From a virus (taxonomy: Duplodnaviria > Caudoviricetes): 35,459 nucleotides of DNA. Location of the stretch: the IMG/VR virus record IMGVR_UViG_3300024255_000080, positions 1-35,459 of that record. One strand, written 5' to 3'. This document shows, one piece after another, positions 11,078 through 17,258 of the stretch. Below the pieces are notes generated by a model that saw nothing but the letters and a program-made list of their open reading frames with translations, was not told the origin of the DNA and searched no databases. The first letter of the stretch is position 1; every line of letters begins with the position of its first letter. A program made the position numbers and the translations under genes.

Positions 11078-11920
11078 TTAACTATGGAACATGAAGTCTA
11101 CACCTTCATCTCCTTTGATTTCTTCTTCTATTGCTTCTAATTCACTATCACCCATATCTTTAATAGCACTATAATCAAATTCAACATTACCAGGTAATGC
11201 AAATTTAAAGATGCCTAACTTAGCACCTAATGATTGTTTTATTTTAGCACTAACATATCTAAAGAATATTTCATCGTCATACAGGGCACAGTCTGGAATA
11301 GTCTCATACAATTCTAATATAACATCACCCTTAGGTGTATCACCCATAATCTTTAATTCACCAGTATTTCTCTGATATTGATAAGAAATAGGATTTTCTA
11401 GAATCTGTCTAGACATATCGGCCAACGAAGCATTTAATACATAGTACTGTAATTCTTCTGCAGCTTCAGCTGGACCTGATCCATTGTACATATTTCTAAA
11501 TAACATTCTTTCTAATGCAAAATCTGCACCGGGCTGGAATCTAAGATCCATTCCAGATCCAACTGAATTCCATCCAGATGTTAAATCATATACGCCATAT
11601 ACTGAAAATACTCCACCGCCACCATCAGTTGCTGGTCCAGGTAAATTAAGAACCCTATTCTCTACAAAATAAGGTGAATTAAAAGTCTCAAAGGGAATAT
11701 GATAATAGTTTTCTCTAACAGAGTCTTCGTACTTTTTATACATCCATTTTTTAGACCTTTTAATTATGTTAATAACTTCTTTTTGTGGCAGGTTCACAGG
11801 TAACATACATGCTCCTGTAATTTCATCTGCGATTTCTTCTAAAAAAGAGTTTAGGCAGTTTGTTCCAAAATCCCTAGGTGTTATTAAATTACTATTGCTT
11901 CCGCTTCTAATTTCACTCAT
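11078..11920 (-). CDS. Neck / head-completion protein, T4 gp13-like
   Basis: C-terminal LYDDEIFFRYVSAKIKQSLGAKLGIFKFALPGNVEFDYSAIKDMGDSELEAIEEEI matches the gp13 pattern YND.W...YA.A.IK...G..L.KF...LPGGV..NG..I...A..E...LEEEL; size 280 aa fits. Confidence 0.75.
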   Translation of the reverse strand: MSEIRSGSNSNLITPRDFGTNCLNSFLEEIADEITGACMLPVNLPQKEVINIIKRSKKWMYKKYEDSVRENYYHIPFETFNSPYFVENRVLNLPGPATDGGGGVFSVYGVYDLTSGWNSVGSGMDLRFQPGADFALERMLFRNMYNGSGPAEAAEELQYYVLNASLADMSRQILENPISYQYQRNTGELKIMGDTPKGDVILELYETIPDCALYDDEIFFRYVSAKIKQSLGAKLGIFKFALPGNVEFDYSAIKDMGDSELEAIEEEIKGDEGVDFMFHS

Positions 11921-11923
11921 TTC

Positions 11924-13234
11924 TTAATTTATTTTTTTACTAACTACAACTTCAGTAGTATCTCCTATTCTAGCATCTTTTCCTAAGAAGCCTTCTCTGT
12001 ATATACCACCGATAGTTCTACCTTTAAATACGCCATCACGGCCAAATATAAAACAATTAGTAGCAGTAGCACTACCATGTACATAGCATGATTCTACTTT
12101 ACTGTCTTTTATTTCTGTACTACTGTAAATATTACATCTTTTAAGCATAGATCCTTCTACGTTGCAATTATACATTGCAGAGTTTTCTACATTACCTCTA
12201 ATTTCACAATCTATAAATTCATATCCATCTAAAATGAATACAGCCGGAAAGACTCCGTCCTTTATTTGAAGTGTACCATAATCAGAATCATAATTTATAA
12301 TTCCTCTTTCCATAGTACCGTTTGCTATTAAATCAATTACCCTATCCTTTATTCTAGGCCATTGAACCTTAACAACCTGCTCGTTGTCTTGTAAATCAAC
12401 TAGTACGTGAATATTAGGGAAATGTTTGTTTAATTTAGTATGGTCCTTTAGAGACTCTATAAGTGGTTTATTCTTATTAAGAATTCTTTTAAGTTCTACT
12501 CTATTCTGTATTGTAAACCTAGGATCATTACATGATTTCCACATTTGCATAATAAACCTTTCACACAAATACAATATTTCTTCTTTGCTTTTGTGATAGT
12601 CTTCTCCACCAATATATCTAAACTCTAAGTAATTTTTCTGCGCCTTTTCAAAGTTTATACCATAGTACTTAGAATTAGCAAACGTAAAATTCATTGGTGA
12701 AATATGATCTTCATCAAAGTAATATGCTTCTCTTGCTGGCATAACCCATTTTATACTTTTAGCATATGTTGAACCTTCTCGAGAAGGGAAGAAATTATAA
12801 ACTTGTTGCTCATCAAACTCTAAAATAAATTTAAGAATGTTCATTTTAGAAACCATTAACGAATCTTCTAAGTAGTCAGTTTGAAATGACATATTTAAGT
12901 GAATACTAGCACGATCGTTAGTATATCCGTTTTTATCAATCCAATCCAACATTTTAATAATAATTACCCTAGCATTTCTGTAAGGAATTGGACCGGTTAC
13001 CAGTTCTATAAGTCCTTTACCACCTGACATATCAGGTTCCATTTTAAAGACCTTATCGTCTGGTACGAAATCTGAATGTGACTTTTCTTCTAGTTGAATT
13101 TTTCTATTCAATAGATTAGAAAGAGACTTTTGGGTCTCTTCAAGCCCTATATTGGAATAGAACTCAAACTCCACGCCTATTTGCGCGGAGTTCAAGATCT
13201 GTTCTTTTGTAGATTTTATATTAAGTTTCTGCAT
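11924..13234 (-). CDS. Putative amidoligase (COOH-NH2 ligase, Amidoligase_2-type) with a C-terminal beta-helix-like repeat domain
   Basis: Ordered motifs IGVEFEF, EPDMSGG, IELVTGP, ASIHLNMS, KYYGINF, YLEFRY follow the GxExE...D.S...ElvSP...g.HvH...Y..lN...iEFR signature. Last ~100 aa are short Cys/Ser/Asn repeats (NCNVEGSMLKRCNIYSSTEIKDSKVESCYV). Confidence 0.75.
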   Translation of the reverse strand: MQKLNIKSTKEQILNSAQIGVEFEFYSNIGLEETQKSLSNLLNRKIQLEEKSHSDFVPDDKVFKMEPDMSGGKGLIELVTGPIPYRNARVIIIKMLDWIDKNGYTNDRASIHLNMSFQTDYLEDSLMVSKMNILKFILEFDEQQVYNFFPSREGSTYAKSIKWVMPAREAYYFDEDHISPMNFTFANSKYYGINFEKAQKNYLEFRYIGGEDYHKSKEEILYLCERFIMQMWKSCNDPRFTIQNRVELKRILNKNKPLIESLKDHTKLNKHFPNIHVLVDLQDNEQVVKVQWPRIKDRVIDLIANGTMERGIINYDSDYGTLQIKDGVFPAVFILDGYEFIDCEIRGNVENSAMYNCNVEGSMLKRCNIYSSTEIKDSKVESCYVHGSATATNCFIFGRDGVFKGRTIGGIYREGFLGKDARIGDTTEVVVSKKIN

Positions 13235-13259
13235 CTAGAGTATGATATTACCGTTTGAT

Positions 13260-13267
13260 TATATATC
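13260..13267 (-). promoter_or_regulatory. GATATATA putative late promoter for the amidoligase
   Basis: Intergenic, 25 nt before ATG 13234. Confidence 0.6.
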
Positions 13268-13282
13268 ACACTCCCGTTAAAC

Positions 13283-14581
13283 TTATTGTGGTAGCTTAAG
13301 AAATACTTTCATTGAGTCGACATCTATCCTTGTAATCTGTACAGTGATCTCATCTCCTGGTTTAAATACTGACATAGTATCTTCACCTATTTCACTTATA
13401 TGTAGTAATCCTGTTACTCCATCTTCTATTGTAATAAATAAACCGTAGTCCTTTTTAGTTTTAACTTTAGCAACAACATTTGAAGGAATTTGGTATCTAG
13501 ATTGAATATCTACCCATGGATTAGTTTCTACATTTGCTTTTTGAGTTAGTGTTATTTTCTTCTCACTTACAATATCTTTAACTTTAAAAGTAATAGCATC
13601 TCCAGGTTTAATTTCTCTAGCCTTAAACTTAACTAATGTTTCTTCGTCTAAATCGTTATTGTGAATCATTCCAGTTAAACACATACCGAATTCAACAAAT
13701 ACACCGTATTTAGCAGTTCCAGTAACATGTCCCGTTTTCTCATTATCAATAGTTTCTTTTAATTCTTCTATTTTACTAGGAATTAACGCTTGTAAATATT
13801 TTCTATGTGATACTACTAATGTACCTCTATCTGGTGAGAAACTTACAGGAACGACATACAATTCAGTTCCTATAATAGAACTAAAATCATGTAGTTTATT
13901 AATACCCGCTAATGATCCAGGCATAAAGCAATCAATTCCTTGAACGTTTACTATGTAACCTCCATTCTCAATCATATTTACAACTGTACCTACCCAAGCG
14001 GTATCGCCTTTTTCAACACCATCTCTAAGATCCATGAATGTTTTTTGTTTAACACCACCGCTGATGCTTCCAATAACATGTGATCCTGGTTGATATGTTG
14101 TAATTAACACCGATGTGGTTTCACCTGGTCTCAGGGCTTGAACCGATTCAGGTTCTTTTTCAAACTTAATATAAACAGATTCCCTATATCCTACATCTAC
14201 GGTGATCCAATCTGAAGTCACAGCATATACTGTACCATCATAAATTGCACCTTCATGTAATTCAGGTAACATGTTAACGCTAGACTCATACTTCTCCATT
14301 TTATCATATAGCTCTTGCGCATATAATTCTCTAGAGTAAACTTTGTCTCCGTTCCTGGTTTTAATATGTTTGTTTGGTTTTCTGAGTCTAGTTACACAAG
14401 TAGCTTCATATTCATCCCACATGAATTCTCCTTCTGCATTATACCACTGATCATTGGTATCTTCTAATTCCTCTGTCTTAGTTGTTGATTCTACTACTGC
14501 TTCAGTATTCGATTGTACTGTCTTTGTTGCTAGATCAACCGTAGTTTCGCCGATTCTAGCTCTTTTTGATTTGTTTGTCAT
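13283..14581 (-). CDS. rpsA: Phage-encoded ribosomal protein bS1 homologue (four S1/OB domains, N-terminal extension)
   Basis: Four S1 repeats in RpsA order: D1 GAIYDGTVYAVTSDWITVDVGYRE; D2 GGYIVNVQGIDCFMPGS...LVVSHRK; D3 GHVTGTAKYGVFVEFG..LTGMIH; linker NPW; D4 KVKTKKDYGLFITIEDGVTGLLHISEI...FKPGDEITVQITRID. Confidence 0.88.
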   Translation of the reverse strand: MTNKSKRARIGETTVDLATKTVQSNTEAVVESTTKTEELEDTNDQWYNAEGEFMWDEYEATCVTRLRKPNKHIKTRNGDKVYSRELYAQELYDKMEKYESSVNMLPELHEGAIYDGTVYAVTSDWITVDVGYRESVYIKFEKEPESVQALRPGETTSVLITTYQPGSHVIGSISGGVKQKTFMDLRDGVEKGDTAWVGTVVNMIENGGYIVNVQGIDCFMPGSLAGINKLHDFSSIIGTELYVVPVSFSPDRGTLVVSHRKYLQALIPSKIEELKETIDNEKTGHVTGTAKYGVFVEFGMCLTGMIHNNDLDEETLVKFKAREIKPGDAITFKVKDIVSEKKITLTQKANVETNPWVDIQSRYQIPSNVVAKVKTKKDYGLFITIEDGVTGLLHISEIGEDTMSVFKPGDEITVQITRIDVDSMKVFLKLPQ

Positions 14582-14607
14582 TTTTTTATATTAAGAGTGT
14601 AACATAT

Positions 14608-14615
14608 TATATATC
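14608..14615 (-). promoter_or_regulatory. GATATATA putative late promoter for the bS1 homologue
   Basis: Intergenic, 26 nt before ATG 14581. Confidence 0.6.
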
Positions 14616-16541: not shown

Positions 16542-17258
16542 TTATTTACCTTTTTGTTGATAGTTAATATGAGTACTTGATAATTGACCAACAACAACTG
16601 GTGTCGGTGGCATTGGAGGACCGGATGGTCCAACTCCAGTTGGATGAATATGTGCATTATAATCGTCTAACCACATTTGTAACCAATCTTGTAGAGATTG
16701 ACCTCTTACTGCTGGCTCTGTCTCATCTGCTCCAGGTTCACCTTCATTTGAAACAAATATATCACCACAGTCTAAGAACATCTTCGCATCCGTGCTTATC
16801 TTAATGAATCCCTCTTCGTCTATTTGTATCATTGGTCTTTCTTTTGCACCACTACCTCGAGTGATAACTAAACCATCTTCAGGAGAATGATAGATTCTTA
16901 CATTACGTTCAGCATCATATACTAAACTAATAACGTCGTGTGGAGCATCTGATGCCTCTAAAATGTCTGTCTTTAAGTCTGGGTTTTGATCTATTTGAAA
17001 CCAATATTCTGGGTGGTAAATGTTCCCGTTATCAAATCTAACAGCAACTATATCTCCAACTCTAGGTACTGAATGTGCACCTACTTGGTCTCTATTCATA
17101 GGAGTTGCCCATGGAATAGCTTCATCTGTTAATGAATCAAATTTACCATAAACTTTTACTCTACATCTTCCTTGTAATAATGGATCTTCGTTGACAATTA
17201 CCTCACCGAGCCAGTGAGTTTCTCTAATATTGTCTTTATATAATTCTTTATCATTCAT
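16542..17258 (-). CDS. Central baseplate spike, gp5/gpV-like (OB fold, short beta-helix, HxH tip); no lysozyme domain
   Basis: EDPLLQGRCRVKV...IPWATP...VPRVGDIVAVRFDNGNIYHP is the gp5/gpV OB-fold signature; C-terminal YNAHIHPTGVGPSGPP is the HxH metal-binding apex of P2 gpV-type spikes. Confidence 0.85.
   Translation of the reverse strand: MNDKELYKDNIRETHWLGEVIVNEDPLLQGRCRVKVYGKFDSLTDEAIPWATPMNRDQVGAHSVPRVGDIVAVRFDNGNIYHPEYWFQIDQNPDLKTDILEASDAPHDVISLVYDAERNVRIYHSPEDGLVITRGSGAKERPMIQIDEEGFIKISTDAKMFLDCGDIFVSNEGEPGADETEPAVRGQSLQDWLQMWLDDYNAHIHPTGVGPSGPPMPPTPVVVGQLSSTHINYQQKGK

What the first reader, a model, noticed from the sequence alone, without database searches (positions are those of the whole stretch)
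13283..14615. Four-domain ribosomal protein bS1 homologue inside the baseplate operon, behind a late-type promoter
Seen: a 432-aa ORF with four collinear S1 domains, lying between spike-region and neck genes with its own GATATATA motif. Established: bS1 D1-D2 anchor to the 30S subunit, D3 onward bind mRNA leaders, Gram-negative bS1 usually has six domains, and S1 homologues have been reported in some huge phages. Inference: this copy keeps the anchor, lacks D5-D6, has a shortened D3/D4 (no SW motif after HISE) and is expressed late or even packaged. It could replace host bS1 and alter which mRNAs are translated. The placement among virion genes is the unusual part.
Basis: partly seen in the sequence, partly recalled or inferred. 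Interest (0 to 1): 0.85.

Follow-up and report, generated by a model that had tools for sequence, protein, structure and literature searches.

The report
Remodelled phage ribosomal protein S1
A large uncultured marine phage carries, among its tail genes and behind a motif that also precedes capsid-assembly and tail genes in a relative, a conserved four-domain copy of ribosomal protein S1 that likely docks on the ribosome of a probable Flavobacteria-type host to help late phage messages get translated; such genes were reported in 2020, but this one has a phage-specific insert and probably lacks S1's usual third domain.

Summary
The 432-aa ORF (13283-14581, minus strand) is a four-domain bS1 homologue. 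It is under purifying selection (dN/dS about 0.09), and the two genes downstream are the same in 80 of 80 related viral loci. Its GATATATAA motif is kept in 33 of 33 distinct upstream regions and precedes portal, protease, sheath and tube genes in a relative, so late expression is likely. It keeps the Bacteroidia-type F-x-W docking helix, and all 8 relatives checked whose contigs reach over 30 kb upstream also carry bS21. Two corrections. 'Lacks D5-D6' is doubtful: domain 3 has D4/D5 loop lengths and profile scores, suggesting D1-D2-D4/5-D4/5, an order not reported for cellular bS1, though a tree test does not reject D3. Placement among virion genes is clade-specific and does not imply packaging. 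Ribosome binding is inferred, not shown; the complex prediction could not be run. 'Possible rpS1' genes of huge phages are in print since 2020, and this scan found the family before on other DNA (13 windows, 12 genomes). Verdict: new variant of a known kind, interest 0.42.

The parts
13283..14581 (-). Phage bS1 homologue, 432 aa
   Evidence: dN/dS 0.08-0.095 in 5 pairs
14607..14615 (-). GATATATAA motif, likely late promoter of the S1 gene
   Evidence: (33 of 33 distinct upstream regions)
14405..14431 (-). Residues 51-59, G-x-F-x-W helix; counterpart of the Bacteroidia bS1 segment that contacts uS8
   Evidence: G51, F53, W55 invariant in 59 of 59; G-x-F-x-W in 120 of 120 homologues; aligned to F. 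johnsoniae-type FLANFNWHNF
14327..14401 (-). Residues 61-85, phage-specific basic insert (8 K/R, 2 D/E; 85% column conservation), also in Lak phage S1
14282..14326 (-). Residues 86-100, helix equivalent to the uS2-binding N-terminal helix of E. coli bS1 (Y87, A88, Q89, Y92 invariant)
   Evidence: role from PMC10123108
14054..14263 (-). S1 domain 1 (D1 type; R133 at the E. coli K43 position)
   Evidence: best profile D1 in 59 of 59; R133 in 59 of 59
13796..14008 (-). S1 domain 2 (D2 type)
   Evidence: best profile D2 in 59 of 59
13538..13753 (-). S1 domain 3, with D4/D5-type loop lengths; RNA-face Y292, F295, H307, K342 conserved
   Evidence: tree test inconclusive
13289..13498 (-). S1 domain 4, D4/D5 type, long loop 5 residues shorter; Y379, F382, H394, K425 invariant
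13259..13267 (-). Second copy of the motif, in front of the next gene
   Evidence: 31 of 31
11924..13234 (-). Constant downstream neighbour, Amidoligase_2-like N-terminal domain
   Evidence: PF12224 E 2.2e-05, 24.9 bits over cut-off 22; 80 of 80 loci
11078..11920 (-). Head-tail adaptor (neck) gene
   Evidence: phrog_211 E 4.9e-11
16542..17258 (-). gp5/VgrG-type OB-domain baseplate gene, two genes upstream
   Evidence: PF04717 E 3.4e-07; phrog_430

Best explanation
The gene encodes a conserved four-domain bS1 homologue that is likely made late in infection, is predicted to dock on the 30S subunit of a probable Flavobacteriia host through its two N-terminal helices and D1-D2, and would then use its two RNA-binding domains to deliver SD-less phage messages for initiation. 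Shown: homology, conserved docking and RNA-face residues, purifying selection, the promoter motif, rarity of SD sequences, and linkage with phage bS21. Inferred: late timing, the host, ribosome binding, exchange with the loosely bound host bS1, and joint action with phage bS21. Whether it favours phage mRNA or only tops up S1 activity is open.
For: The collinear bS1 match and top Foldseek hits are ribosome-bound bS1. Domains 1 and 2 classify as D1 and D2 in 59 of 59; these are the ribosome-anchoring types (PMC3858243; PMC2760812). A phi-[DN]-W motif before D1 is in 25 of 30 class-Bacteroidia bS1 and 0 of 32 other bS1; its phage counterpart is in 120 of 120 close homologues; in F. johnsoniae this segment contacts uS8 (PMC13000457). 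Residues matching E. coli Y205/F208/H219/R254, needed for RNA binding (PMC4176380), are conserved in both C-terminal domains. The motif precedes portal, head protease, head closure, sheath and tube genes and 0 of 10 scanned replication and recombination genes in relative G071, which encodes a gp55-like late sigma. SD-like words: 1 of 33 window genes, 5 of 141 and 4 of 221 in relatives, against 11 expected by shuffling in the latter; F. johnsoniae bS1 raises initiation on an SD-less mRNA about 2-fold (PMC9976891). bS21 is in 8 of 13 related contigs, 24-30 kb upstream; the 5 without it end 15-27 kb upstream. Its best PDB match is the bS21 of 7jil, the F. johnsoniae ribosome, and bS21 loss destabilises the bS1 N-terminus there. 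Contigs of 4 of 4 RNA runs (3 studies) cover parts of the gene.
Against: No binding or translation assay exists. The protein is far from cellular bS1 (22-30% identity to annotated rpsA genes) and under all rpsA cut-offs. The D1-D2 tree puts the phage proteins on a long branch outside Bacteroidota, and AU tests neither favour nor reject a Bacteroidia sister position (p 0.10), so a Bacteroidia donor rests on one motif. If D3 is missing, the protein lacks the domain type whose further loss is lethal in E. coli deletion series. The conserved W of the long loop is lost in both RNA domains. Only 23 of 87 short distant representatives show an F-x-W-like motif. The motif also precedes a ribonucleotide reductase small-subunit gene, so it is not strictly structural. 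RNA contigs show neither timing, strand nor level. bS21 was not found in LR756500 or Lak-B1, which carry the S1.
Confidence: 0.58

Rival explanations
1. Ribosome-bound blocker. It would occupy the bS1 site with an intact anchor but altered RNA domains, shutting out host bS1 and so damping host mRNA translation, trans-translation or a bS1-dependent defence, rather than promoting initiation.
For: The anchor types are kept while the third domain looks unlike D3 and the loop W is lost. E. coli bS1 truncations lacking D3-D6 still bind ribosomes yet are lethal (PMC3858243).
Against: The RNA-face residues are almost invariant in both C-terminal domains, which are as conserved as D2 (0.84 against 0.88); a mere plug would not need that. 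Phage messages are SD-poor and would need S1 activity.
Confidence: 0.15
2. Extraribosomal RNA chaperone or cofactor. It would bind late phage RNAs or a phage enzyme off the ribosome, as host bS1 does for T4 RegB and Q-beta replicase.
For: bS1 moonlights in phage cycles (PMC13157829 passage). D1-D2 also mediate the Q-beta contacts. The phage-specific basic insert and invariant R7/R9 have no host counterpart in the alignment. Al-Shayeb et al. left 'on or off the ribosome' open.
Against: It keeps the Bacteroidia-specific F-x-W segment, whose described role is contact with uS8. It is linked with bS21 in close relatives.
Confidence: 0.19
3. Virion component, or packaged protein injected to act early.
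For: Fixed position between spike-region and neck genes and a late-type motif. Packaging was proposed, untested, for phage bS21 (PMC9723584).
Against: It has its own promoter motif. In 6 of 7 large phage records the S1 gene has none of these structural neighbours within 12 kb; Lak-B1 neighbours include Thg1 and DnaB. Its immediate neighbour is enzyme-like. No structural-protein family matches it.
Confidence: 0.07
4. Host contamination, misassembly or a decaying gene.
For: One copy lies in a Flavobacteriaceae MAG; a published phage bS1 case has been challenged as a cellular fragment (PMC13623518).
Against: 80 viral loci share the synteny; dN/dS is about 0.09; the MAG has its own full-length rpsA on another contig; the nearest Atlas clusters are 100% viral.
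Confidence: 0.01

Closest known systems
'Possible rpS1' genes of huge phages (Al-Shayeb et al. 2020, PMC7162821; passages read)
   Same: Multi-S1-domain gene in a large phage with few SD sequences, proposed to act in initiation. The 462-kb record LR756500.1 has a homologue (35.6% identity) in the same gene order: upstream block, S1, amidoligase-like, neck.
   Different: That paper could not confirm 'true' rpS1. The passages I read give no domain typing, anchor, promoter or synteny; searches of its 10 readable supplements for S1 terms found nothing and 2 zip files were too large to read.
Ribosomal protein bS1 (RpsA) of class Bacteroidia, e.g. F. johnsoniae (PMC13000457, PMC9976891; passages read)
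   Same: F-x-W segment before the uS2 helix, D1 and D2 types in order, PW linker before the last domain, RNA-face residues.
   Different: Four domains, not six; about 25-residue basic insert between the two docking helices; third domain with D4/D5 loop lengths; loop W lost; 25-27% identity.
Four-domain cellular bS1 of Bacillota and Actinomycetota (Salah et al. 2009, PMC2760812; sections 12-13 read)
   Same: Four S1 domains, about 400 aa.
   Different: Those arise by C-terminal loss and keep the order 1-2-3-4/5 (control L096 types as D1-D2-D3-D4). The phage protein types as 1-2-4/5-4/5.
bS21-encoding Bacteroidetes phages (Chen et al. 2022, PMC9723584; parts 1-3 of 6 read)
   Same: Large AT-rich myovirus, probable Flavobacteriia host, ribosomal initiation protein near virion genes, late expression proposed.
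   Different: Those are freshwater phages with bS21 beside terminase and capsid genes, and are stated to lack other ribosomal protein genes. Here bS21 lies beside DnaJ- and PhoH-like genes, and a bS1 is present as well.
S1 of Prevotella Lak megaphages (MK250015-MK250029)
   Same: About 29% identity; shares the F-x-W segment, the basic insert and the D4/5-type third domain.
   Different: No fourth S1 domain detected; not among virion genes; no bS21 found in Lak-B1.

Membership tests
bS1/RpsA | Tandem S1/OB domains collinear with bS1, better than with PNPase, CvfD, GSP13 or RNase R | tested here: met
bS1/RpsA | First two domains of D1 and D2 type | tested here: met
   59 of 59 each
bS1/RpsA | Third domain of D3 type | tested here: inconclusive
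   Against: loop spacing 16, where host D3 is 15 in 67 of 67 and D4/D5 are 16 in 67 of 67; D4+D5 profile best in 59 of 59. But p-AU 0.36 for grouping with D3, and 37 of 100 simulated diverged D3 are mistyped.
bS1/RpsA | Curated equivalog cut-off (TIGR00717, PRK06299, PRK06676) | tested here: not met
   158 of 577, 166 of 524, 133 of 368 bits. Caveat: 0 of 31 Bacteroidia rpsA reach the TIGR00717 cut-off either, and most models span six domains.
bS1/RpsA | N-terminal uS2-binding helix and K43-equivalent | tested here: met
   By sequence only: Y87/A88/Q89/Y92 invariant, helix 88-101 predicted, R133 for K43
bS1/RpsA | RNA-face residues Y205/F208/H219/R254 | tested here: met
   residues from PMC4176380
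bS1/RpsA | Binds the 30S subunit and promotes initiation | not testable with these tools
   Needs bench work; the complex-prediction queue was full
Bacteroidia-type bS1 | phi-[DN]-W segment before the uS2 helix | tested here: met
Bacteroidia-type bS1 | Phylogenetic placement with Bacteroidia bS1 | tested here: inconclusive
   The free tree places the phage clade outside; the constraint is not rejected, p-AU 0.10
T4-type late-promoter gene | Motif upstream of virion genes plus a gp55-like sigma in the genome | tested here: met
   In relative G071; the window's own record is only 35 kb
T4-type late-promoter gene | Transcript starts at the motif late in infection | not testable with these tools
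   Only RNA contigs were available
Virion structural protein | Similarity to a structural family, or presence in virions | tested here: not met

The most novel reading that the evidence does not exclude
These phages encode a distinct, widespread S1 family (about 90 short clusters at 50% identity) with an architecture not reported in cells: host-type anchor, basic insert, D1-D2, no D3 and two D4/5-type RNA domains. With a phage bS21 it rebuilds the Bacteroidia 30S platform late in infection into a ribosome that prefers phage leaders.
Probability: 0.22. Interest if true: 0.8.

Novelty: new variant of a known kind. Interest (0 to 1): 0.42.

Why it matters
bS1 decides which SD-less messages initiate, and Bacteroidia rely on SD-less initiation. 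A phage clade that keeps both bS1 and bS21 gives a direct test of the long-proposed ribosome takeover, using the existing F. johnsoniae in vitro system. If the third domain is truly not D3, the protein is also a natural test of whether D3 is needed for bS1 function. The mere existence of phage S1 genes is not new.

Tried and rejected
Complex prediction with host uS2 (alignment A2 with residues 43-195): never run because the queue was full; no verdict. Domain trees (84 columns): the phage third domains form a very long branch; the careful search did not finish, and none of 5 constrained placements was rejected by AU. D1-D2 tree (188 columns, fast search): donor unresolved; the constrained phage-monophyly tree was rejected although the free tree shows that clade, so these fast searches are unreliable. 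Sigma-70 scan: 9 sites against 14.7 expected, none before the gene. Bacteroidota -7 box (consensus recalled): 2 of 45 upstream regions. A hairpin at 13163-13196 as terminator: strong in close relatives only (z -4 to -7), weak in many others; rejected as a general feature. Genome collection: 1 hit, a phage-like contig in a MAG. The N-terminal piece (residues 43-195) alone gives no significant PDB sequence match. The bS1 of MW495066 types as cellular D1-D2-D3 and was set aside. Supplements: no S1 terms in Chen 2022 file 2 (the PDF was not searched) or in Al-Shayeb's readable files. RNA depth was not used to rank genes.

Full report
Observation. The ORF at 13283-14581 (minus strand, 432 aa) is real. 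It lies in a one-strand block of a phage record of 35,459 bases, estimated 13% complete. Residues 100-430 match a 557-aa bS1 collinearly (E 5.6e-43). Twelve rpsA-type NCBIfam models rank above CvfD, GSP13 and PNPase, all under their cut-offs. The AF2 model has four beta-rich domains (pLDDT 70.4, pTM 0.41, so the domain arrangement is uncertain), and its best PDB matches are ribosome-bound bS1. Upstream lie a gp5/VgrG-type OB gene and an unannotated 637-aa gene; downstream lie an Amidoligase_2-like gene, a head-tail adaptor and baseplate wedge genes.

Spread and conservation. The viral scan confirmed 101 relatives and kept 80. In 80 of 80 the next two recognised genes are the amidoligase-like and neck genes; in 75 of 80 the previous recognised gene is the 637-aa gene, and in the other 5 no upstream window gene is on the locus. 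Extra ORFs are inserted upstream in some loci, and the promoter motif stays with the S1 gene. dN/dS is 0.08-0.095 in 5 close pairs. A profile search returned 87 proteins of 330-480 aa among the best 150 clusters at 50% identity. These are unlabelled, but the nearest Atlas clusters are 100% viral. Of 7 large phage records examined (of 40 hits), LR756500.1 has the same gene order and the other 6 showed none of the window's neighbours within 12 kb. The place among virion genes is therefore clade-specific.

Promoter. GATATATA occurs 7 times in the window, all on the coding strand, 5 of them within 60 nt of a start. It is in 33 of 33 distinct S1 upstream regions and 31 of 31 of the next gene, but 0 of 32 and 0 of 33 for the two upstream genes. 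In the 150-kb relative G071, 23 of 141 genes have it, among them portal, head protease, head closure, sheath, tube and a fibre-like gene. None of 10 scanned replication and recombination genes has it, though several may be internal to operons; a ribonucleotide reductase small subunit and a RimK-like gene do. A gp55-like late sigma is present. The likeness to the T4 late promoter TATAAATA is recalled. Late expression is likely, not shown. Contigs of 4 of 4 marine RNA runs (3 studies; 4 laid of 13 listed) cover parts of the gene but show no timing or strand.

Docking parts. G51, F53 and W55 are invariant in the 59-sequence alignment, and G-x-F-x-W is in 120 of 120 close homologues. A matching phi-[DN]-W lies before D1 in 25 of 30 class-Bacteroidia bS1 and 0 of 32 others. 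In F. johnsoniae that segment contacts uS8, and loss of bS21 destabilises it (PMC13000457, passages). The uS2 helix is present with Y87 and Y92, and R133 replaces K43 (roles from PMC10123108, passages). Between the two helices the phage has a conserved basic insert of about 25 residues, shared with Lak phage S1. A D1-D2 tree does not resolve the donor.

Domain identity. Domains 1 and 2 type as D1 and D2 in 59 of 59. Domain 3 types as D5 (58) or D4 (1) against all-bacteria profiles, with mean scores D3 19, D4 32 and D5 36 bits. The strand-2-to-His spacing is 15 in 67 of 67 host D3 and 16 in 67 of 67 host D4 and D5; the phage has 16, and its His-to-GD loop is 19 like D4/D5, not 18. A D4+D5 profile beats D3+D4 in 59 of 59 under six settings. 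In a held-out set the domain after D2 typed as D3 in 43 of 47 long proteins (2 others, 2 unassigned). Among 96 short proteins it typed as D4/D5 in 66, D3 in 3, D6 in 3, and 24 were unassigned. Against this: all phage copies share one ancestor, so these counts are one event; identities to D3, D4 and D5 differ little (22, 23, 26%); 37 of 100 simulated diverged D3 were mistyped, though with small mean margins; LR756500 has the short spacing; and AU does not reject grouping with D3 (p 0.36). I put about 65% on a non-D3 origin. Salah et al. (PMC2760812, abstract and sections 12-13) found that short cellular S1 proteins lose C-terminal domains and keep the order; Duval et al. (PMC3858243, sections 11 and 16) found D1-D3 to be the viable minimum. 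Residues matching E. coli Y205, F208, H219 and R254 (PMC4176380, passage) are conserved in both phage RNA domains, while the loop W is lost.

Partner gene and host. bS21 was found in 8 of 13 related contigs, 24-30 kb upstream of S1. All 8 that reach over 30 kb upstream have it; the 5 without end 15-27 kb upstream. It was not found in LR756500 or Lak-B1. The window ends before that position. One copy matches best the bS21 of PDB 7jil, the F. johnsoniae ribosome. SD-like words are rare (1 of 33, 5 of 141, 4 of 221). A Flavobacteriia host is probable, not shown.

Mechanism. Most likely the protein is made late, exchanges with the loosely bound host bS1 (PMC9976891, passages) on the 30S platform beside a phage bS21, and delivers SD-less late messages (0.58). 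The rivals are an off-ribosome chaperone or cofactor (0.19), a ribosome-bound blocker (0.15), a virion part (0.07) and an artefact (0.01). Binding is untested; the complex prediction could not be run because the queue was full.

Novelty. Phage bS1 was noted in viral metagenomes before 2019 (PMC6375957, passages), and 'possible rpS1' of huge phages in 2020 (PMC7162821, passages). UniProt already names such phage proteins '30S ribosomal protein S1'. This scan has look-alikes in 13 windows of 12 genomes; 8 notes were shown and all read it as a known kind. Five searches on phage S1 found no paper that types the domains, describes the insert, or reports bS1 with bS21 in this clade; subscription papers and some supplements were out of reach. 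Verdict: new variant of a known kind, interest 0.42.

Noticed in passing
window 11924-13234 (-): Amidoligase_2-like gene with its own motif, fixed next to the S1 gene in 80 of 80 loci and one gene away in LR756500; target unknown.
   Followed up: partly
L177:10600-11550 (G071): Motif-led ATP-grasp gene matching phrog_2599 (ribosomal protein S6 glutaminyl transferase, E 8e-09); with bS1 and bS21 it could be a third product aimed at the 30S platform, but the Pfam hits are generic ATP-grasp.
   Followed up: partly
window 14599-14606 (-): The 8 bases after the S1 promoter motif (TATGTTAC) are kept in 41 of 45 relatives, unlike those after the next gene's motif; possibly a leader or start-site element.
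   Followed up: partly
window 14555-14566 (-), residues 6-9: K6-R7-x-R9 stretch (R7 and R9 invariant) at the otherwise low-confidence N-terminus; no role known.
   Followed up: no
L177-L181 (G071): Many genes begin with a shared MKHIKLFEEF-like peptide, several behind the motif; the S1 protein lacks it.
   Followed up: no
L083:11493-11882, L084:11400-11810, L086:11061-11477: In three megaphage records the gene just before S1 encodes a small UvrB/UvrC-motif protein.
   Followed up: partly
L087, L088 (Lak phages): Lak S1 shares the insert and anchor, but no fourth S1 domain was detected; a Thg1 gene follows in Lak-B1.
   Followed up: partly
L090 (PAUJ01000008.1): A 67%-identical copy on a contig of a Flavobacteriaceae MAG that has its own rpsA elsewhere; probably a binned phage contig.
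   Followed up: partly
window 13163-13196 (-): 14-pair hairpin near the start of the amidoligase-like gene, strong only in close relatives.
   Followed up: yes
L059, L061, L069 upstream of S1: Inserted ORFs of 422-700 aa, and small ones in other loci, between the 637-aa gene and S1: an insertion hotspot.
   Followed up: no
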